DNA of 64,000 bases. Source: Escherichia phage nieznany. Below are positions 10,008 through 63,052 of the stretch, piece after piece. Made by a program: the position numbers and the translations under genes. The stretch lies in sequence record NC_052659.1, one strand, 5' to 3'. The notes beneath the pieces were generated by a model, which saw nothing but the letters and a program-made list of their open reading frames with translations, was not told the origin of the DNA and did no database searches. Positions within the stretch are counted from its first letter, which is position 1. The number at the start of each line of letters is the position of its first letter.

Positions 10008-10952
10008 ATGGGACAAATAATTCTTGACAATCGTAACGGAATCAATTATAGTGTCTGCGATTTCCATAGGGTAGTGCTGCCTTACTCAAGGCAGTTCTCT
10101 TCACAACCTAAATACAACGTTTTCGTTTTTAACGGAGTGCCAACAAAAGGTAAAGAGGGCTTTTTAGCCCTTAAAAACCTGGGCTTTAAAATGGTTATGG
10201 ATTTGGATGACTCTTTAGTTATTCCAAAAGGACACATGTTAGAAGGTATTTTTGAATCAGGTATTCGTGAACATTTAAAATGGTTTTTAGAGCACAGTGA
10301 TCTTGTTACAACTACGACACCTGCCTTGCAAGTTGAACTTTCACAATACAATGATAATGTGCACATAATCCCTAATGGACTTCCTTACGATGAAGGTCAA
10401 TTTGTGTTGACCCGTGATCGCTACTCCAAAACTCCATTAGTCTGGGCTGGAAGTGAAACACATAAACAAGATTTGGCTATCTTGCCCGATTTTGGTAAAG
10501 ATCTTACAATATGTGGTTTTCGTAGGGATTCTGAAGTTTTAAGTAGTCGTGAATGGTCTTTAATCAGGGAAAATGTAGCACCAACTTGTGTTTATGAAGG
10601 TGTAAGACCATATGCCAACTACATGGAATCTTACGATGGTCATCAAATCAGTCTTGCACCATTGATCGATAACGTGTTTAATAATGCAAAAAGCAATCTT
10701 AAAATTCTTGAGGCAGGTGCTAAGGGTTTACCTTTAATCTGCTCTCCTCGTGAGAATTATCATACACAAGAGTTTAAAGATTTGTTATTCTTTGCTGAAA
10801 CACCTTCCGAGTGGAAAGATATTACGGAATACTTATTAAGTGCTCCCGATGTTTGCATGGAGAAAGGATTAGCATTAGCTAAGTATGTCAGGACTCATTA
10901 TCACATTGATGTGTTGAATGAGCGTCGTAGACTTTTATTTGAGGAGCTATAA
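10008..10952 (+). CDS. putative GT-B fold glycosyltransferase (paralog 2)
   Basis: Shares CD(Y/F)HR, DLDD, PLVWAG, NNAKSNLKILEAGAKGLPLICS with 9053..10000. Confidence 0.45.
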   Translation: MGQIILDNRNGINYSVCDFHRVVLPYSRQFSSQPKYNVFVFNGVPTKGKEGFLALKNLGFKMVMDLDDSLVIPKGHMLEGIFESGIREHLKWFLEHSDLVTTTTPALQVELSQYNDNVHIIPNGLPYDEGQFVLTRDRYSKTPLVWAGSETHKQDLAILPDFGKDLTICGFRRDSEVLSSREWSLIRENVAPTCVYEGVRPYANYMESYDGHQISLAPLIDNVFNNAKSNLKILEAGAKGLPLICSPRENYHTQEFKDLLFFAETPSEWKDITEYLLSAPDVCMEKGLALAKYVRTHYHIDVLNERRRLLFEEL

Positions 10953-33763: not shown

Positions 33764-34068
33764 AGTGCGTTCTCATTACTTTTTAAATCACGAGATACAA
33801 CTAATTCCCCAAGGTCTACAGAACCCGCTGAATGCACAAATACAGCAGCACTAAGACTAATGGCAGTAGTACCTGGGGCAATATCAGCAGGTAGGGAATA
33901 CGCCCTTTGCGTCTCCTTATCATAGATAACCTTATACCCACCCAAATCCACACCAACTGAGAAGTAAACAACCTCAGATTGTTTAACTCCAAAGTGACGG
34001 GCTACTGCTTGTTTATTGGTTAAGATTCCGGTTGAACCTTTACCACCTTGTGAGAACATTTCGTTCAT
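33760..34068 (-). CDS. hypothetical structural protein
   Basis: ORF in baseplate module. Confidence 0.35.
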   Translation of the reverse strand: MNEMFSQGGKGSTGILTNKQAVARHFGVKQSEVVYFSVGVDLGGYKVIYDKETQRAYSLPADIAPGTTAISLSAAVFVHSAGSVDLGELVVSRDLKSNENAL

Positions 34069-35981: not shown

Positions 35982-38135
35982 CTATATATAAAATTTTTGT
36001 GTTGTTACTAAATCTTCTCCAGATTTAGTGGCTAATGTAATTCCACTTATGGTGGCAATCTCAACATTTACCTGTTTAAGAGTGATATCCTGTAAATAAA
36101 CGTTCAAAGGCACGTTACCCATATAGAAAACTTGGGATTGAGAATTAACTACTGTGATAGAATCATGCATTATTTGAGGATAGGCCCATATATATTGTGT
36201 AAGTCCGTCAAACTTATTGGCGTTCAACACTATGTTACCTATAATCATCTTCCAAAGATATGTGCGGTAGTTTGATTTAGGATCAAAGCCATACAAAGGT
36301 GCAAGAGTAGCATCTGGAACAAAACCTGAAAGGTAGTGAATATCAGAATATTCAAAACCTAATTTTTCATGTGGTATAGTAATTGCATCAAATGCTTTCA
36401 TCATCTTACCTTCCAGAAGCCAGTCATAACACTCTGAACAGTAAAAATCAAAAGCTTCAGGAATGTAGTAATCAGACGGGAAGTTAACTTTCTCCATCAA
36501 ACCGTTGCCGATAATTGATGGCAAGAACGGAAGCAATGTTACCTTGGCTCCTGGGTAAGTTGCTCTAGTATCTGTTGCAAACTTTGTAACTCTTAATCCT
36601 AGTTTACGAGACAAAAATGCATAGTATTCGTCAAACGGCGTTCCTGTTTTATAATTATCTATTGTTCCTGCATCTTGTGCAAATAAACCTGTTTCTGTGT
36701 TGAATGCCAGTTTGGTAGTGTAATCATATATGCAAGGCATTTTACTTGCTGTATTATACCACCACCAAGGCTCACCAATTTGAATGACAACTGGAATATT
36801 ATTAGCTTGCGAAATAGATGCTATTTTATTAATAACATTTTGCAAATATTCCATACCTTCGTCAATAGTTGGAGACAACACATAACTAGGAGGTTTATAC
36901 CCTGTTGCTGCAAGAGCATCGTTCCAATCATGCTGAACCCATTCTACAGGACAAACTGTGCTCATCAATTCAAAACTTAAAGAGTTCATTATTGTGTAGC
37001 CCTTCTCGTTTGCTATAGAATGGAAGCTGTTAAGCCAAGCTTCTGTAGCCGGATTCAGGAAAACAGATTTATTTAAAGCCCAAGATGTTCCATTCCATGA
37101 GAACTCATAATAGTGAGACATTCCGTTATAATGGTTAATCATCCCACGATAACCTAGTGCATATGTATTATAAATAACTCTCTCTGGAGTCAGGTTATAC
37201 ATATCATCATAAGATGTGCACATGCGAATATCATGTTCAGGCTGGACAAGGTTGCTGACTTTCATCATACTGTAACCAGAGGTAGGTTCAAGAAGAGTGA
37301 AAGTAAACCAAGCCTCTTGACTGTCAATAGGTACAACCTCTTCTATTTCTTCGTACCTTGCTGTAATCAAAGAGAAGAAAATATTATCTACAGCACTCAT
37401 ATCCAAAGGAATATCATTATTAGGGCCAGAAAAGATATTACCAAAATCTAACTTGATTGTAGCTGTTTTACCATCTTCTGAAATATCTAAAGCGTAGAAT
37501 CCTAAACTGACATAATGAACACTTTTATCCAGGAGAGTTACAGTCAAAGTCGGCACCAAAGGTTCTTCTTTAAAACCTGGCATGTTTTGACTAATTTCCA
37601 TTTTAAACCAAAGTTTCTCTGAACTTAAATCTGTGTGGGGTAAATACCCAACACCTTTATGGTCATATTTGTCAACTGTGCTCCAGATAACCCCTGCCAA
37701 ACCTGCTGTTGTTCTGTTTACAAATCTTGCAGTAAAAGAGTCTCCATGAGATACAATAGAACAACTTTCCGTTGCTTGAGAATCTATTGTCCAATACATA
37801 GGAGAGAACATTTTAACGTCTTTTGTAGTCCAAGTTATTGGAGTAGTATTTTCTTGGATAGTAGTTATAATACAATTGATGGTTGTTTCAACCATCATAT
37901 TATTTTGACTAATCCCTGAAACTTGGAGGGAGAAGTTAAGATCTATTGAGTTCTTTGGTCGTTCAAATACTTCAACCACAATAGTAGCAGAATCAGCATC
38001 ATCAGGGAACACAAGTGTTCCCGATTTTGCAATATAATCTCTACCAGCGACTGCTGTTCCGTCAACAGTCGTGTAGTTAAATGAACTCGCATTTACTCTC
38101 TTGTCTCGCGTGACAGTAAATATAGCTTGTTTCAT
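35982..38135 (-). CDS. tail/baseplate structural protein
   Basis: 717 aa ORF in tail module. Confidence 0.4.
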   Translation of the reverse strand: MKQAIFTVTRDKRVNASSFNYTTVDGTAVAGRDYIAKSGTLVFPDDADSATIVVEVFERPKNSIDLNFSLQVSGISQNNMMVETTINCIITTIQENTTPITWTTKDVKMFSPMYWTIDSQATESCSIVSHGDSFTARFVNRTTAGLAGVIWSTVDKYDHKGVGYLPHTDLSSEKLWFKMEISQNMPGFKEEPLVPTLTVTLLDKSVHYVSLGFYALDISEDGKTATIKLDFGNIFSGPNNDIPLDMSAVDNIFFSLITARYEEIEEVVPIDSQEAWFTFTLLEPTSGYSMMKVSNLVQPEHDIRMCTSYDDMYNLTPERVIYNTYALGYRGMINHYNGMSHYYEFSWNGTSWALNKSVFLNPATEAWLNSFHSIANEKGYTIMNSLSFELMSTVCPVEWVQHDWNDALAATGYKPPSYVLSPTIDEGMEYLQNVINKIASISQANNIPVVIQIGEPWWWYNTASKMPCIYDYTTKLAFNTETGLFAQDAGTIDNYKTGTPFDEYYAFLSRKLGLRVTKFATDTRATYPGAKVTLLPFLPSIIGNGLMEKVNFPSDYYIPEAFDFYCSECYDWLLEGKMMKAFDAITIPHEKLGFEYSDIHYLSGFVPDATLAPLYGFDPKSNYRTYLWKMIIGNIVLNANKFDGLTQYIWAYPQIMHDSITVVNSQSQVFYMGNVPLNVYLQDITLKQVNVEIATISGITLATKSGEDLVTTQKFYI

Positions 38136-60661: not shown

Positions 60662-60685
60662 CAAAAAGCCTCCAATAAGGAGGCT
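60662..60685 (-). terminator. rho-independent terminator downstream of tRNA cluster (minus strand)
   Basis: GCCTCC-AATAA-GGAGGC hairpin with A-run on plus side. Confidence 0.45.
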
Positions 60686-60800: not shown

Positions 60801-60879
60801 TGGAGGCGGGAATTGGATTTGAACCAATGATCTCCAGCATATGAAACTGGCGAGGACGACCAGACTCCTCTATCCCGCT
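60801..60879 (-). tRNA. tRNA-Met or tRNA-Ile2 (anticodon CAT), CCA encoded
   Basis: Manual cloverleaf: acceptor AGCGGGA/TCCCGCC (1-72 mismatch), anticodon loop TTCATAT, T-arm ATTGG-TTCAAAT-CCAAT, discriminator U. Confidence 0.6.
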
Positions 60880-60885
60880 ATTAGG

Positions 60886-60955
60886 TATCCCGTGCTGGAT
60901 TCGAACCAGCATCACAATAAGCTGTGGAACTCTTATCCTGTAAGTCTAACGGGAA
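60886..60955 (-). tRNA. tRNA-like gene with non-canonical anticodon region (anticodon undetermined)
   Basis: Canonical T-arm GCTGG-TTCGAAT-CCAGC and 6-bp acceptor stem, but no D-arm and only a 5-bp stem with 10-nt loop where the anticodon arm should be. Confidence 0.35.
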
Positions 60956-60957
60956 AC

Positions 60958-61031
60958 TGGTTGTTTCGACAAGAATCGAACTTGTGTCTCACGATTATCA
61001 GTCGTGGGTTCTACCATTGAACTACGAAACA
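60958..61031 (-). tRNA. tRNA-Ile (anticodon GAT), CCA encoded
   Basis: Acceptor CGAAACA/TGTTTCG, D-arm GTTC-AATGGTA-GAAC, anticodon loop CTGATAA, T-loop TTCGATT. Confidence 0.8.
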
Positions 61032-61037
61032 TTAAAT

Positions 61038-61114
61038 TGGTCGGAATTGCAGGATTCGAACCTGCGACCCTACGCTCCCAAAGCGTATGCTCTACCAAAC
61101 TGAGCTAAATTCCG
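61038..61114 (-). tRNA. tRNA-Pro (anticodon TGG), CCA encoded
   Basis: Acceptor AATTCCG/CGGAATT, D-arm GCTC..GAGC, anticodon loop TTTGGGA, T-loop TTCGAAT. Confidence 0.8.
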
Positions 61115-61207
61115 TCATAACATTCTAAAGGTACACCGCAAAAGAAAGTGTTCGGCGGCTCCTCGTTTTTAACTTCACACTTGAGGTAGTGACTCACCTT
61201 TGTTATA

Positions 61208-61283
61208 TGGCTGGTCTGTCTGGATTTGAACCAAACCTACGACAGTCAAAGTGTCGTGTGCTACCGGACTACACTACAAACCA
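61208..61283 (-). tRNA. tRNA-Gln (anticodon TTG), CCA encoded
   Basis: Acceptor TGGTTTG/CAGACCA, anticodon stem CGACA/TGTCG, loop CTTTGAC, T-loop TTCAAAT. Confidence 0.7.
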
Positions 61284-61381
61284 ATAAATCATTTAATGAA
61301 GGGCAACCAGAAGAGGTGTGAGAGAAGGAGAAAACCATGAGTAAAAGAGAAAGTTTTCTGGCAACCCTTTATTAAATAATT

Positions 61382-61455
61382 TGGAGCGTTCTACGAGGAT
61401 CGAACTCGTGCCGCCGACTTGGAAGGACGGAATGCTACCGCTACACCAAGAACGC
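61382..61455 (-). tRNA. tRNA-Gly (anticodon TCC), CCA encoded
   Basis: Acceptor GCGTTCT/AGAACGC, anticodon loop CTTCCAA, discriminator U as typical of bacterial tRNA-Gly. Confidence 0.7.
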
Positions 61456-61466
61456 CCTACATCTTT

Positions 61467-61496
61467 ACTATACTACATTTTACTATTGGTTGTCAA
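61467..61496 (-). promoter_or_regulatory. sigma70-like promoter for tRNA sub-cluster 1 (TTGACA-18-TATAGT), minus strand
   Basis: Plus TGTCAA 61491..61496 within CTATTGACAA motif; -10 about 6 nt upstream of tRNA-Gly 5' end. Confidence 0.45.
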
Positions 61497-61771
61497 TAGT
61501 TTTATTGAGTGGGACAGTGACGAGTATCCCGTTGGGTGACTAGCCCTACGTTCGGTAAGCTAACTTAAAATAATACAAAACCAAAGTCAAATATTATTCT
61601 TCGTTGCTGTCGATGGGAGAGCCGCTTCTTCTTTTGCCCCATCCAACCCTACTCCGGTCAAGTTTCAGGTAACTCTTTTTGTGTGATCAACACAATACTA
61701 AGAACACTGTCTTTCGAACAGACCTTGTGCACAGGATACGACGATCAATCACAGTGCTCTTAATGTTGTGT

Positions 61772-61846
61772 TGGTGCTCCCACTCTGAATCGAACAGAGA
61801 TCCACGGATTACAAAACCGTTGTAATAGCCATTATACTATAGGAGC
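61772..61846 (-). tRNA. tRNA-Thr (anticodon TGT), CCA encoded
   Basis: Acceptor GCTCCTA/TGGGAGC, anticodon loop TTTGTAA, T-arm CTCTG-TTCGATT-CAGAG. Confidence 0.65.
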
Positions 61847-61852
61847 AAAGCT

Positions 61853-61929
61853 GGGACTCGGCAGGATTCGATACCTGCAATTCCAGAAGCCTCTTGGCGA
61901 CTGGGGGTTTACCTTAACTCTACAAGTCC
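61853..61929 (-). tRNA. tRNA-like gene with non-canonical T-loop and anticodon region (anticodon undetermined)
   Basis: 7-bp acceptor stem GGACTTG/CGAGTCC, T-stem GCAGG/CCTGC with 8-nt loop TATCGAAT, no clean 5-7-5 anticodon arm. Confidence 0.3.
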
Positions 61930-62028: not shown

Positions 62029-62116
62029 TGGTGGTGAGTGATGGAGTCGAACCACCCGAATCGCAATGATAACAGATTTACAGTCTGCCCCGCTACCCCT
62101 ACGGAATTAACTCACC
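62029..62116 (-). tRNA. tRNA-Tyr (anticodon GTA), type II, CCA encoded
   Basis: Acceptor ACTCACC/GGTGAGT, anticodon arm GCAGA-CTGTAAA-TCTGT, long variable arm, T-loop TTCGACT. Confidence 0.7.
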
Positions 62117-62245
62117 TAAATACTAATATTTAAATTCTTTTTAAAATAGCCAGTGTTCACACCACTAACTATGAGTTATCGGTAAGATGGTGGGGCCATC
62201 TGCCGAAAGTTTACTCTATTAAAGTAAGCCATATTAAAAAGAACT

Positions 62246-62336: not shown

Positions 62337-62427
62337 TGGCGGAAGGAGGGAGAGTCGAACTCCCAAGGCTCTTTCAAGCTCGGCGGTTTTCAAGACCGTT
62401 TTCGTCGCCACGTCGATTTGCCCTTCC
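62337..62427 (-). tRNA. tRNA-Ser (anticodon TGA), type II, CCA encoded
   Basis: Acceptor GGAAGGG/TCCTTCC, anticodon loop CTTGAAA, long variable arm, T-arm GGGAG-TTCGACT-CTCCC; D-region atypical. Confidence 0.6.
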
Positions 62428-62436
62428 ATACTTATA

Positions 62437-62465
62437 ATCTAACATAAAATAATGTTTGTTGTCAA
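62437..62465 (-). promoter_or_regulatory. sigma70-like promoter for tRNA sub-cluster 2 (TTGACA-17/18-TTAGAT), minus strand
   Basis: Plus TGTCAA 62460..62465 within CTATTGACAA motif; ends a few nt upstream of tRNA-Ser(TGA) 5' end. Confidence 0.4.
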
Positions 62466-62661
62466 TAGTTTTTTAAAACATTTTACCATGAATGGTGACT
62501 CCACCAACCCCCGTTCTCCACGAACGGTGCTCTTCGAGCATTTATGTCTTCTAATATAACCGTGGCCTTTGTTTATAATGTCTGACATACTTGCCTCATT
62601 CTCTGCCACCATGATCAGTAGTGGGTTCAAATCACTTGAGCTAATTCATGTTAAAATGTTC

Positions 62662-63022: not shown

Positions 63023-63052
63023 ATCCTAACATATGAAGGATACGTTTGTCAA
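63023..63052 (-). promoter_or_regulatory. sigma70-like promoter for tRNA sub-cluster 3 (TTGACA-18-TAGGAT), minus strand
   Basis: Plus TGTCAA 63047..63052 within CTATTGACAA motif; -10 TAGGAT in the same ATG-TAGGAT context as plus-strand promoter at 19719. Confidence 0.4.

What the first reader, a model, noticed from the sequence alone, without database searches (positions are those of the whole stretch)
60886..61929. Two tRNA-like genes with intact acceptor/T arms but non-canonical anticodon regions
60886..60955 has a perfect T-arm and 6-bp acceptor stem but no D-arm and a 5-bp stem with a 10-nt loop instead of an anticodon arm. 61853..61929 has a 7-bp acceptor stem, an 8-nt T-loop and no clean 5-7-5 anticodon hairpin. 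Both are packed between canonical tRNAs within the same transcription units. They may be pseudo-tRNAs, tRNA-derived regulatory RNAs or decoys, or tRNAs with expanded anticodon loops.
Basis: seen in the sequence. Interest (0 to 1): 0.5.

Follow-up and report, generated by a model that had tools for sequence, protein, structure and literature searches.

The report
Two non-decoding tRNA-like RNA genes
Inside this coliphage's tRNA gene cluster sit two conserved genes for tRNA-shaped RNAs that have no anticodon loop; one is the counterpart of phage T5's long-annotated but never explained 'RNA3', so they are real and selected, but of a kind already seen and still of unknown function.

Summary
The window is Escherichia phage tuntematon (Phapecoctavirus). 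Its tRNA cluster lies on the minus strand. Both observations hold. Each element has an acceptor stem and a T arm, and a closed hairpin replaces the 5-7-5 anticodon arm. Neither encodes CCA, while all 12 neighbouring tRNAs do. ARAGORN calls neither. The Rfam tRNA model gives c1 24.6 bits (cut-off 29) and does not match c2.

c2 (61850-61929) is homologous to phage T5 'rna3 / RNA3, putative tRNA-like RNA'. That gene also lies directly 3' of tRNA-Asn(GUU). The family occurs in Phapecoctavirus, Justusliebigvirus and about 350 T5-like genomes. Covariation is strong: 11 of 16 consensus pairs show compensatory changes. The 8-nt T loop is conserved.

c1 (60883-60955) belongs to a second, rarer family. 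It is found in Phapecoctavirus, five Vequintavirinae and phiEB49, where it is annotated tRNA-Val. Covariation is weaker but real, and c1 changes faster within the genus.

Neither is a decoding tRNA, and c2 is not a decaying pseudogene. I infer that they are processed like tRNAs and act in trans as tRNA mimics. A cis processing role, or for c1 decay, is not excluded.

Verdict: new members of a known kind, of moderate interest.

The parts
60883..60955 (-). c1: whole tRNA-like gene, 73 nt: UUCCCGUUAGACUUACAGGAUAAGAGUUCCACAGCUUAUUGUGAUGCUGGUUCGAAUCCAGCACGGGAUACCU
   Evidence: Model R2 match at 98.6 bits. Sequence checked. Homologues found.
60949..60955 (-). c1 acceptor 5' strand, UUCCCGU
   Evidence: Pairs with 60887-60893. 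Six standard pairs plus U1.U72. Three acceptor pairs carry compensatory changes in relatives.
60931..60946 (-). c1 D-arm-like region, GACUUACAGGAUAAGA. The inner pairs CUUA/UAAG are invariant.
   Evidence: Aligned as a D arm by the Rfam tRNA model. Nearly invariant across all three phage groups: among pair columns 12-15/21-24, no member varies. The same D loop is seen in apparent phage tRNA-Arg(UCU) genes.
60913..60926 (-). c1 closed hairpin, CACAG-CUUA-UUGUG. It is 14 nt where a 17-nt anticodon arm would be.
   Evidence: In A7_1 and UPEC06 the same stem is extended to 7 bp with a 3-nt loop. The Rfam tRNA model skips this arm.
60894..60910 (-). c1 T arm, GCUGG-UUCGAAU-CCAGC (canonical)
   Evidence: The first stem pair changes G-C to A-U in the Vequintavirinae copies.
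60887..60893 (-). c1 acceptor 3' strand, ACGGGAU
60883..60886 (-). c1 3' tail, A-C-C-U. No CCA is encoded. The tail is ACAU in phAPEC8 and ESCO5, and ACCA in phiEB49; the Vequintavirinae copies end ...GGAAACCA, where ACCA holds only if the acceptor is read as 6 bp.
61850..61929 (-). c2: whole tRNA-like gene, 80 nt with tail. Homologue of phage T5 RNA3.
   Evidence: Model R1 match at 83.3 bits. Alignments A2 and A3. T5 annotation.
61923..61929 (-). c2 acceptor 5' strand, GGACUUG
   Evidence: Pairs with 61854-61860. Four of the seven pairs carry compensatory changes across genera.
61906..61922 (-). c2 conserved U8-A9 plus D-arm-like region, UA-GAGUUAAGGUAAACC
   Evidence: UGUAGAGUUAA...AAACC is invariant or nearly so from T5-like phages to Stephanstirmvirinae, while the stems covary.
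61883..61904 (-). c2 closed 22-nt hairpin, CCAG-UC-GCC-AAGA-GGC-UU-CUGG, in place of an anticodon arm
   Evidence: The base of the hairpin covaries. Length is 12-22 nt and the loop differs in each genus.
61861..61878 (-). c2 T arm, GCAGG-UAUCGAAU-CCUGC, with an 8-nt loop
   Evidence: The 8-nt loop YAUCRRAU (R at loop positions 5 and 6) is kept in all 11 family members. Four of the five stem pairs carry compensatory changes.
61850..61860 (-). c2 acceptor 3' strand CGAGUCC plus tail C-AGC. No CCA is encoded. T5-like copies end in ACCA.

Best explanation
Both loci are genes for non-decoding tRNA-like RNAs. They descend from tRNA genes and keep the tRNA body: an acceptor stem, a D-like region, and a T arm. 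The anticodon arm has been replaced by a closed hairpin.

Shown here:
- They lie inside promoter-to-terminator tRNA units, spaced like ordinary tRNA genes.
- They fail standard tRNA models.
- Each belongs to a family kept in several phage genera with compensatory base-pair changes.
- c2 is the homologue of T5 RNA3.

Inferred:
- They are cut from the polycistronic precursor by host RNase P at the 5' end and trimmed at the 3' end like tRNAs.
- They may then receive CCA from the host CCA-adding enzyme.
- They persist as stable L-shaped RNAs of about 73-77 nt that cannot read codons.

Mechanism I commit to, with low certainty: they act in trans as tRNA mimics. They would occupy a protein that recognises the tRNA body, such as a host tRNA-targeting defence nuclease or a tRNA-processing or tRNA-modifying enzyme. 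The sealed middle arm would keep them out of translation and offer no anticodon loop to cut.
For: Identity and selection:
- ARAGORN and Rfam do not call either element.
- No ORF longer than 63 aa overlaps the cluster.
- c2 family: 94.8% of cells are paired, against 26-49% when the partners are slid. Eleven pairs change on both sides, and 0 of 500 shuffles reach the covariation score. RNAalifold independently recovers the acceptor, hairpin and T stems.
- c1 family: 95.2% of cells are paired, against about 40% when slid. Five pairs change on both sides.
- c2 matches T5 rna3 and sits in the same place after tRNA-Asn. About 354 T5-like records hold it.

Transcription context:
- Sigma-70-like promoters lie at 63052, 62465 and 61496, and a terminator at 60685-60667, all on the minus strand.

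Trans rather than cis:
- In tuntematon and JohannJBalmer a genuine tRNA (Thr or Met) follows within 6 nt, so its RNase P site would already release the upstream tRNA. The two genera nevertheless keep c2 through compensatory changes in acceptor, T stem and hairpin.
- phiWec190 keeps c2 intact although the upstream tRNA-Asn is gone.
- c1 follows a different tRNA in each group: Ile, Tyr or Arg.
- The D-like region and a derived 8-nt T loop are conserved in sequence. A bare RNase P site would not need that.
- T5-like c2 copies and the phiEB49 c1 copy keep an encoded ACCA end; the Vequintavirinae c1 copies end ...GGAAACCA, read as ACCA only with a 6-bp acceptor.

Wider context: phage tRNAs are known to counter tRNA-cleaving defences such as PARIS and retron/PtuAB (PMC11464382, PMC11555353).
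Against: - There is no expression or processing data for either element. Even the T5 record calls RNA3 only 'putative'.
- Tuntematon's copies encode no CCA, unlike all 12 neighbouring tRNAs. Within Phapecoctavirus the c1 tail drifts from ACCU to ACAU.
- c1 has the most variable sites of any non-indel segment in the cluster: 8.3%, against 0-2.7% for the tRNAs. That fits relaxed constraint.
- Within-genus divergence is too low to show selection directly, because the spacers are equally conserved.
- No target protein is identified.
- The c2 D loop does not keep G18/G19 in every genus, so a canonical tRNA elbow is not assured.
- The phiWec190 case is a single genome and could be a recent rearrangement.
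Confidence: 0.45

Rival explanations
1. Cis-acting processing punctuation. The elements are kept only because their acceptor/T-arm helix gives RNase P a cleavage site. That cut frees the 3' end of the upstream tRNA, or separates tRNA from mRNA as in T5, where an ORF follows RNA3. The excised RNA itself is waste.
For: - Both elements start 2-7 nt after the CCA of a canonical tRNA.
- The best-kept helices are those that form the minimal RNase P substrate.
- Loss of the encoded CCA in tuntematon fits a product that is discarded.
- In T5-like phages RNA3 is followed by an ORF.
- RNase P alone can separate polycistronic E. coli tRNA transcripts (Mohanty & Kushner 2007, cited in PMC5291269).
- Plant mitochondrial 't-elements' work this way (PMC1920247).
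Against: - In tuntematon a real tRNA follows each element within 6 nt, which makes the extra RNase P site redundant. c2 is still maintained by compensatory evolution between genera that have this same layout.
- Other tRNAs in the same cluster do without such an element and have 93-316-nt spacers downstream.
- The invariant D-like sequence, the middle hairpin and the special 8-nt T loop are not needed for RNase P.
- phiWec190 keeps c2 without tRNA-Asn upstream.
Confidence: 0.2
2. Decaying pseudo-tRNAs with no present function. They are tRNA genes that lost their anticodon loops and survive only because little time has passed. This is most plausible for c1.
For: - c1 has lost 3-4 nt of the anticodon arm relative to its Vequintavirinae relatives.
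- c1 has lost its CCA, and the tail varies.
- c1 has one G18-to-A change in phAPEC8_ev052.
- c1 shows the highest share of variable sites in the cluster.
- The c1 family is rare and patchy: about 76 Phapecoctavirus records, five Vequintavirinae and phiEB49, with nothing more in the metagenome scan.
Against: - c2: 11 pairs carry compensatory changes across three phage groups, and the element is kept in about 350 T5-like genomes.
- c1: none of the within-genus changes breaks a standard pair of a stem. The only stem change is G.U to A-U, and one change falls at the already mismatched position 72.
- c1: the acceptor and T stems show compensatory changes between families.
Confidence: 0.15
3. Aminoacylated tRNA-like carriers used outside decoding, or for an unusual ribosomal role. 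They would be charged by a synthetase that ignores the anticodon.
For: - T5-like c2 copies and the phiEB49 c1 copy encode A73-CCA; the Vequintavirinae copies end ...GGAAACCA, which is A73-CCA only with a 6-bp acceptor.
- A 1.72 mismatch (U.U in T5 RNA3 and in tuntematon c1) and an odd T loop are features that, in known tRNAs, alter handling by EF-Tu. This point comes from my own knowledge of initiator tRNAs and was not tested.
Against: - No identity element was recognised. There is no G3.U70, no long variable arm and no G-1.
- The tuntematon copies lack CCA, and the tail is not conserved among Stephanstirmvirinae: CAGC, AAUU, AAGU, AAUA.
Confidence: 0.05
4. Functional decoding tRNAs with non-standard (expanded or reduced) anticodon loops. 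ARAGORN and Rfam would simply have missed them.
For: ARAGORN and the GenBank record call phiEB49's c1 homologue tRNA-Val(AAC), with a 7-nt loop UUAACAA.
Against: - That call scores only 24.6 bits, below the cut-off of 29.
- In tuntematon the loops are CUUA (c1) and AAGA (c2), each closed by a stem.
- Loops differ in length and sequence between genera, and no U33 or anticodon is conserved.
- No CCA is encoded.
Confidence: 0.03

Closest known systems
Phage T5 RNA3 (gene rna3, T5s07; NC_005859 33877-33949), annotated 'putative tRNA-like RNA'
   Same: It is homologous to c2. Both lie directly 3' of tRNA-Asn(GUU). Both share the invariant UGUAGAGUUAA..AAACC 5' region, the AUU linker and the 8-nt T loop YAUCGAAU. 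The acceptor, hairpin and T stems covary.
   Different: T5 RNA3 has a U1.U72 mismatch, an 18-nt hairpin with the loop CAACCA, and an encoded ACCA end, and an ORF follows it. Tuntematon c2 has a full 7-bp acceptor, a 22-nt hairpin with an AAGA loop and no CCA, and tRNA-Thr follows it. The function is unknown in both.
Other stable RNAs in phage tRNA clusters: T5 RNA1 and RNA2 ('tRNA-like stable RNA with unknown functions'), and T4 RNAC and RNAD
   Same: They are small non-coding RNAs encoded among phage tRNA genes, some of them tRNA-like, with function still unknown (PMC9697503).
   Different: No sequence similarity was found between the tuntematon cluster and T5 RNA1, RNA2, RNAI, RNAIII, RNAIV or RNA2H. 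Those RNAs are longer, at 103-172 nt. T4 RNAC and RNAD were not compared here.
phiEB49 'tRNA-Val(AAC)' and unannotated copies in Vequintavirinae phages A7_1, A73, W70, UPEC06 and LTH01
   Same: They are homologous to c1 at 77-83% identity. The 5' half CCGUUAGGCUUACAGGAUAAGAUUCC and the T arm are the same. Each lies directly 3' of a canonical tRNA.
   Different: Their middle arm is 17-18 nt. In the Vequintavirinae it is a 7-bp stem with a 3-nt loop. In phiEB49 it has a 7-nt loop. phiEB49 ends in ACCA and the Vequintavirinae copies in ...GGAAACCA. Tuntematon c1 has a 14-nt arm and an ACCU tail.
Canonical tRNA (Rfam RF00005) and tRNA pseudogenes
   Same: Cloverleaf-like layout, position in tandem tRNA arrays, and a canonical T arm in c1.
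   Different: There is no 5-bp/7-nt anticodon arm and no CCA, and scores are sub-threshold or absent. Unlike pseudogenes, the helices are kept by compensatory change.
tRNA-like processing signals: plant mitochondrial t-elements, and mascRNA at the MALAT1 3' end
   Same: These are tRNA-shaped modules without decoding function that RNase P and RNase Z recognise. They are the model for the cis rival explanation (PMC1920247).
   Different: They are eukaryotic or organellar, and no homology exists. The Rfam mascRNA model matched only a real tRNA here.
Phage tRNAs that neutralise tRNA-cleaving defences: the T5 tRNA-Lys variant against PARIS, and tRNA-Tyr against retron Eco7/PtuAB
   Same: They are encoded in the same kind of phage tRNA cluster, including T5's, and altered anticodon regions are the point of the adaptation (PMC11464382, PMC11555353).
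   Different: Those are working, decoding tRNAs that replace the cleaved host tRNAs. c1 and c2 cannot decode, so any anti-defence role would have to work through binding or decoy action. That has not been shown for any phage RNA that I know of.

Membership tests
Canonical tRNA (RF00005) | Score at or above the curated cut-off (29 bits), or a call by a tRNA finder | tested here: not met
   ARAGORN calls neither. Neither appears at the gathering score. c1 scores 24.6 bits and c2 has no match at E<=10.
Canonical tRNA (RF00005) | Anticodon arm: 5-bp stem and 7-nt loop with U33 | tested here: not met
   c1 has CACAG-CUUA-UUGUG. c2 has a 22-nt hairpin with an AAGA loop. The Rfam alignment skips the arm.
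Canonical tRNA (RF00005) | 7-bp acceptor stem and a T arm with the 7-nt UUCRANY loop | tested here: inconclusive
   c1 has 6 bp plus U.U and a canonical T arm. c2 has a 7-bp acceptor but an 8-nt T loop, UAUCGAAU.
Canonical tRNA (RF00005) | 3' CCA, encoded in all E. coli tRNA genes and in the tRNA genes of this cluster | tested here: not met
   All 12 canonical genes end in CCA. c1 ends in ACCU and c2 in CAGC. Addition after transcription cannot be tested here.
T5 RNA3 family (tested for c2) | Sequence homology to T5 rna3, including the invariant UGUAGAGUUAA..AAACC region and the AUU linker | tested here: met
   Alignments A2 and A3. BLAST from the tuntematon Asn-c2-Thr stretch reaches T5-like phages across Asn plus c2.
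T5 RNA3 family (tested for c2) | Position directly 3' of tRNA-Asn(GUU) | tested here: met
   Tuntematon, JohannJBalmer, KMB37, SSP1, S124 and T5. The exception is phiWec190.
T5 RNA3 family (tested for c2) | Shared secondary structure with an 8-nt T loop, supported by covariation | tested here: met
   Model R1 scores 80-90 bits on all members, by construction, and no more than 31 bits on true tRNAs.
T5 RNA3 family (tested for c1) | Match to the family model or motif | tested here: not met
   R1 gives c1 25.1 bits, no better than ordinary tRNAs. R2 does not find any c2 copy.
Stable, processed phage RNA (as shown for T5 RNA1/RNA2 and T4 RNAC/RNAD) | A discrete stable transcript with mapped ends in infected cells | not testable with these tools
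   No RNA data are available. The T5 record marks RNA3 as 'putative'.
Decaying tRNA pseudogene | Substitutions fall in stems and loops alike, with no compensatory maintenance | tested here: not met
   c2 clearly fails this. c1 fails it on a small sample, with 5 pairs changed on both sides and no standard stem pair broken within the genus. c1 nevertheless evolves fastest in the cluster.
tmRNA and Y-RNA-like (YrlA) tRNA mimics | Match to the family model | tested here: not met
   ARAGORN finds no tmRNA. The only YrlA match lies over real tRNAs at 22.8 bits, against a cut-off of 69.

The most novel reading that the evidence does not exclude
c1, c2 and T5 RNA3 are RNA anti-defence decoys. They would be tRNA bodies whose anticodon arm has been sealed into an uncleavable hairpin, so that they bind and block host nucleases or sensors that recognise the tRNA body without entering translation. 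The fast turnover of the middle hairpin and of c1 would then reflect an arms race. This would be a new, RNA-based class of phage counter-defence. It would also finally give a function to the orphan tRNA-like RNAs of T-odd and T-even phages.
Probability: 0.15. Interest if true: 0.85.

Novelty: new member of a known kind. Interest (0 to 1): 0.4.

Why it matters
Small stable RNAs of unknown function have been known in phage tRNA clusters for about fifty years, in T4 (RNAC, RNAD) and T5 (RNA1-3 and others). This analysis adds three things:
- One of them, T5 RNA3, is not a T5 oddity. It is a family shared by siphoviruses and myoviruses.
- Its fold is kept by compensatory evolution.
- Its defining trait is a tRNA body with a sealed anticodon arm and a derived 8-nt T loop.

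A second, independent family (c1) has the same design. That gives a concrete object to test, at a time when phage tRNA clusters are being linked to escape from tRNA-cleaving defence systems.

It also matters for annotation. These genes are unannotated in nearly all of the roughly 450 genomes that carry them, and one is mislabelled tRNA-Val.

Tried and rejected
- **IMG/VR motif scans.** The first pattern was too strict and found only the same phages. Two patterns were too loose and returned ordinary tRNAs or coding DNA. One pattern held my own spacing error and found nothing.
- **Metagenome scan for c1.** It returned only Phapecoctavirus-like contigs.
- **Genome scan for c2.** The six hits are chance matches, at no more than 21 bits with model R1.
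- **Kinship of c1 and c2.** Each model scores the other family no better than it scores real tRNAs. I treat them as separate families.
- **Within-genus substitution rates as a test of selection.** The test has no power, because spacers are as conserved as tRNAs. The high values for the Pro, Tyr and two spacer segments are indel and alignment artefacts.
It is the MFE in tuntematon. In the Vequintavirinae and phiEB49 copies it is broken or interrupted by an insertion. It shows no covariation. The question is left open for tuntematon itself.
- **Homology of the cluster's spacers to T5 stable RNAs.** None was found.
- **Coding potential.** Only short ORFs of up to 63 aa overlap the cluster.
- **Literature on RNA3 or on phage tRNA-like decoys.** Nothing specific is held in the library. 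Miller et al. 2003 could not be read.
- **Antisense targets of the conserved D-like regions within the window.** Only two look-alikes with 3 mismatches were found. I did not pursue them.
Full report
**Source and setting**

The 2.2-kb tRNA region of the window is 100% identical to Escherichia phage tuntematon (MN850618; Stephanstirmvirinae, Phapecoctavirus). About 290 phage records share parts of it.

All RNA genes in the region lie on the minus strand. ARAGORN finds 10 tRNAs between 60801 and 62813. Rfam adds a tRNA-Tyr(GUA) at 62032-62116 and a probable tRNA-Ser(UGA) at 62341-62427.

Three sigma-70-like promoters (63052, 62465, 61496) and one intrinsic terminator (60685-60667), all on the minus strand, frame the cluster. 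c2 therefore lies in the unit SerUGA-SerGCU-Tyr-Asn-c2-Thr. c1 lies in the unit Gly-Gln-Pro-Ile-c1-Met.

No ORF longer than 63 aa overlaps the cluster. The tuntematon record and related GenBank records annotate nothing at either locus.

**Checking the observation**

*c1.* The element reads 5'-UUCCCGU UA GACUUACAGGAUAAGA GUUC CACAGCUUAUUGUG AU GCUGGUUCGAAUCCAGC ACGGGAU ACCU-3' (60955->60883).
- The acceptor has six standard pairs plus a U1.U72 mismatch.
- The T arm is canonical.
- A D arm is not really missing. The Rfam tRNA model, run on the element alone, aligns acceptor, D arm and T arm. It skips only the anticodon arm (14 nt where the model has 18) and scores 24.6 bits against a cut-off of 29.
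- The D loop ACAGGAUAA matches D loops seen by eye in IMG/VR sequences whose anticodon loops read CUUCUAA, apparent phage tRNA-Arg(UCU) genes.

*c2.* The element reads 5'-GGACUUG UA GAGUUAAGGUAAACC C CCAGUCGCCAAGAGGCUUCUGG AAUU GCAGGUAUCGAAUCCUGC CGAGUCC CAGC-3' (61929->61850).
- It gives no tRNA match even at E<=10 with lax filters.

*Shared points.*
- All 12 canonical tRNA genes of the cluster encode CCA. c1 ends in ACCU and c2 in CAGC.
- Folding z-scores are -2.3 to -3.6.

**c2 is the homologue of T5 RNA3**

A BLAST search with the Asn-c2-Thr stretch found full-length matches in Justusliebigvirus at about 70% identity. It also found matches covering tRNA-Asn plus most of c2 in T5-like siphoviruses.

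The alignment shows:
- an invariant UGUAGAGUUAA..AAACC 5' region;
- an AUU linker;
- an 8-nt T loop, YAUCRRAU (R at loop positions 5 and 6).

The acceptor, T stem and middle hairpin differ between groups but still pair:

| Group | Acceptor | T stem |
|---|---|---|
| tuntematon | GGACUUG/CGAGUCC | GCAGG/CCUGC |
| JohannJBalmer | UGCUUG/CAAGCA | GUAGG/CCUAC |
| T5-like | UCUGUG/CACAGA | GCUGA/UCAGC (also ACUGA/UCAGU) |

The RefSeq record of T5 annotates exactly this element as misc_RNA rna3 (T5s07), 'RNA3, putative tRNA-like RNA'. It lies at 33877-33949, two bases after tRNA-Asn(GUU). About 354 T5-like records carry it, almost all without annotation.

On an 11-sequence alignment, the cloverleaf-like structure gives these results:
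- 94.8% of cells form standard pairs, against 26-49% when the 3' partners are slid by 1-3 columns.
- 11 pairs change on both sides.
- 0 of 500 shuffles reach the observed covariation score.

RNAalifold on its own recovers the acceptor, hairpin and T stems, and 11 of its 16 pairs show compensatory changes.

The middle hairpin differs in each group and never has a 7-nt loop:

| Group | Middle hairpin |
|---|---|
| tuntematon | 22 nt, AAGA loop |
| T5 | 18 nt, CAACCA loop |
| JohannJBalmer | 16 nt (UCUAGA-AUUU-UCUAGA), AUUU loop |

Inside the T5-like group the hairpin stem itself covaries: GGUAGC/GCUAUC against AGCAGC/GCUGUU.

T5-like copies have a U1.U72 mismatch and an encoded ACCA end. The Stephanstirmvirinae copies have unrelated tails: CAGC, AAUU, AAGU, AAUA.

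**c1 is a second family**

BLAST finds c1 in three places:
- about 76 Phapecoctavirus records;
- five unclassified Vequintavirinae (A7_1, A73, W70, UPEC06, LTH01), directly after tRNA-Tyr;
- the siphovirus phiEB49, directly after tRNA-Arg(CCU), where it is annotated tRNA-Val(AAC).

That 'tRNA-Val' scores only 24.6 bits with Rfam. The A7_1 copy gets no match at all.

All copies share CCGUUAGRCUUAYAGGAUAAGA..CC and the T arm. The middle arm differs between groups:

| Group | Middle arm |
|---|---|
| Phapecoctavirus | CACAR-(3-4 nt)-UUGUG |
| Vequintavirinae | CRCAACG-UMU-CGUUGUG, a 7-bp stem with a 3-nt loop |
| phiEB49 | GUAC-UUAACAA-GUAU |

The structure test gives 95.2% of cells paired, against about 40% when slid. 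Five pairs change on both sides, among them acceptor C3-G70 to U-A and T-stem G-C to A-U.

The seven or so differences among Phapecoctavirus copies break no standard stem pair. They fall in the connector, the hairpin loop, the variable region, position 72, the tail and G18. The one stem change is G.U to A-U.

Even so, c1 has the largest share of variable sites of any non-indel segment in the cluster: 8.3%, against 0-2.7% for the tRNAs and 1.3% for c2. Its tail also drifts from ACCU to ACAU.

The covariance models find one copy of each family in the window. Each model scores the other family no better than it scores ordinary tRNAs. They are two families with convergent design rather than recent paralogues.

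Wider scans added nothing new. The metagenome scan returned only Phapecoctavirus-like contigs, and the bacterial genome scan returned chance matches. Both families appear confined to a few groups of enterobacterial phages.

**What they are not**

- *Decoding tRNAs.* They have no 7-nt loop, no conserved U33 or anticodon and no CCA.
- *tmRNA or a described Rfam family*.
- *Protein-coding*.
- *A decaying pseudogene, in the case of c2.* For c1, decay is weakened but not excluded.

**How they most likely work**

The following is shown here:
- Position inside tRNA transcription units.
- tRNA-like spacing: 2-7 nt after the upstream CCA, and 6 nt between the discriminator and the next tRNA.
- Selection on the acceptor, T and middle helices.

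The following is inferred from established knowledge of E. coli tRNA maturation:
- RNase P recognises the acceptor/T-arm helix.
- Polycistronic tRNA transcripts can be separated by RNase P alone (Mohanty & Kushner 2007, cited in PMC5291269).
- The CCA-adding enzyme recognises the same 'top half'.

From this I expect both RNAs to be excised like tRNAs, possibly to receive CCA, and to persist as L-shaped RNAs.

Two functional readings compete.

*The cis reading* treats the element as an RNase P punctuation mark. It explains the tight abutment to an upstream tRNA, and the loss of CCA. It does not explain several things:
- The element is maintained by compensatory evolution in tuntematon and JohannJBalmer, where a real tRNA follows within 6 nt and would serve equally well.
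- The D-like sequence and a derived 8-nt T loop are invariant.
- phiWec190 keeps c2 after losing tRNA-Asn.
- c1 follows a different tRNA in each phage group.
- Other tRNAs of the cluster manage with long spacers downstream.

*The trans reading* treats the element as a tRNA mimic that engages a protein recognising the tRNA body. Its sealed middle arm would keep it out of decoding and leave no anticodon loop to cleave. I favour this reading.

Phage tRNA clusters, T5's included, are already known to counter tRNA-cleaving defences by supplying replacement tRNAs (PMC11464382, PMC11555353). A decoy would be a different mechanism, and it has not been demonstrated. I put this reading at about 0.45, the cis reading at 0.2, and loss of function (mainly for c1) at 0.15.

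**Comparison with what is known**

- c2 meets every testable criterion for membership of the T5 RNA3 family. c1 does not.
- Both elements fail the defining features of canonical tRNA: the anticodon arm, the model score and the encoded CCA.
- As a kind, they belong with the orphan stable RNAs of phage tRNA clusters. [quoted passage not shown]
- No sequence similarity to the other T5 stable RNAs was found.

**Verdict**

The elements are new members of a known but unexplained kind. The new content here is the cross-family conservation with covariation, the recognition of the 'sealed anticodon arm' design in two independent families, and the link of c2 to T5 RNA3.

Interest is moderate at 0.4. It would be high if the decoy reading were confirmed.

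Noticed in passing
62032-62116 (-) and 62341-62427 (-): Two further probable tRNA genes, Tyr(GUA) at 39 bits in Rfam and Ser(UGA) with an odd D arm, matched only by the tRNA-Sec model at 37 bits. ARAGORN misses both, and the tuntematon GenBank record does not annotate them. Related records annotate them as Tyr and Ser-TCA.
   Followed up: partly
60801-60879 (-): The last tRNA-Met(CAU) of the cluster has an A1.C72 mismatch at the top of the acceptor stem. It is labelled tRNA-Pseudo-CAT in phAPEC8 and Mt1B1_P17, and tRNA-fMet in JohannJBalmer. It may be an initiator-like phage tRNA.
   Followed up: no
61456-61771, 62428-62661, 61284-61381, 62117-62245 (-): These are long spacers between tRNA genes. 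The first three are as conserved within Phapecoctavirus as the tRNAs themselves; 62117-62245 scores 31.8% variable through indels and misalignment. No ORF longer than 63 aa overlaps them. They show no similarity to T5's stable RNAs and have no Rfam match. They could encode further stable RNAs.
   Followed up: partly
63023-63052, 62436-62465, 61467-61496 (-); 60667-60685 (-): Three similar sigma-70-like promoters (TTGACA, 18 nt, TAnnnT) split the tRNA cluster into three units. The latter two share the AACTATTGACAAC context. One strong intrinsic terminator closes the cluster. The GenBank record marks one of the promoter regions only as 'repeat_region'.
   Followed up: partly
L271:553-788 (phiWec190, LC739539): In this Phapecoctavirus, tRNA-Asn is absent upstream of an intact c2 copy. 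A 129-nt 'hypothetical protein' call fills the gap, and tRNA-Thr lies 116 nt downstream. The cluster has been rearranged.
   Followed up: partly
L252:699-777 (phage cardinal); L126:462-543; L253:698-779: Justusliebigvirus phages carry a further odd element, annotated 'tRNA-OTHER' in cardinal. The c2 model hits it only weakly, at 15-17 bits. It may be a third tRNA-like RNA, and it is not present in the window.
   Followed up: no
L003:1442-1520 (phage A7_1): A weak tRNA match (33.9 bits) that ARAGORN does not call, next to tRNA-Met in a Vequintavirinae cluster.
   Followed up: no
10725-10742 (-) and 37292-37309 (+): There are two look-alikes, each with 3 mismatches, of the conserved c2 D-like 18-mer GTAGAGTTAAGGTAAACC elsewhere in the window. 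About 0.05 would be expected by chance. They could be coincidence or pairing partners.
   Followed up: no
L130 (T5, NC_005859 29000-41000): The T5 record lists eight misc_RNA genes in its tRNA region: RNAI, RNAIII, RNAIV, RNA1, RNA2, RNA2H, RNA3 and RNAX. All are of unknown function, and most T5-like genome records annotate none of them.
   Followed up: partly
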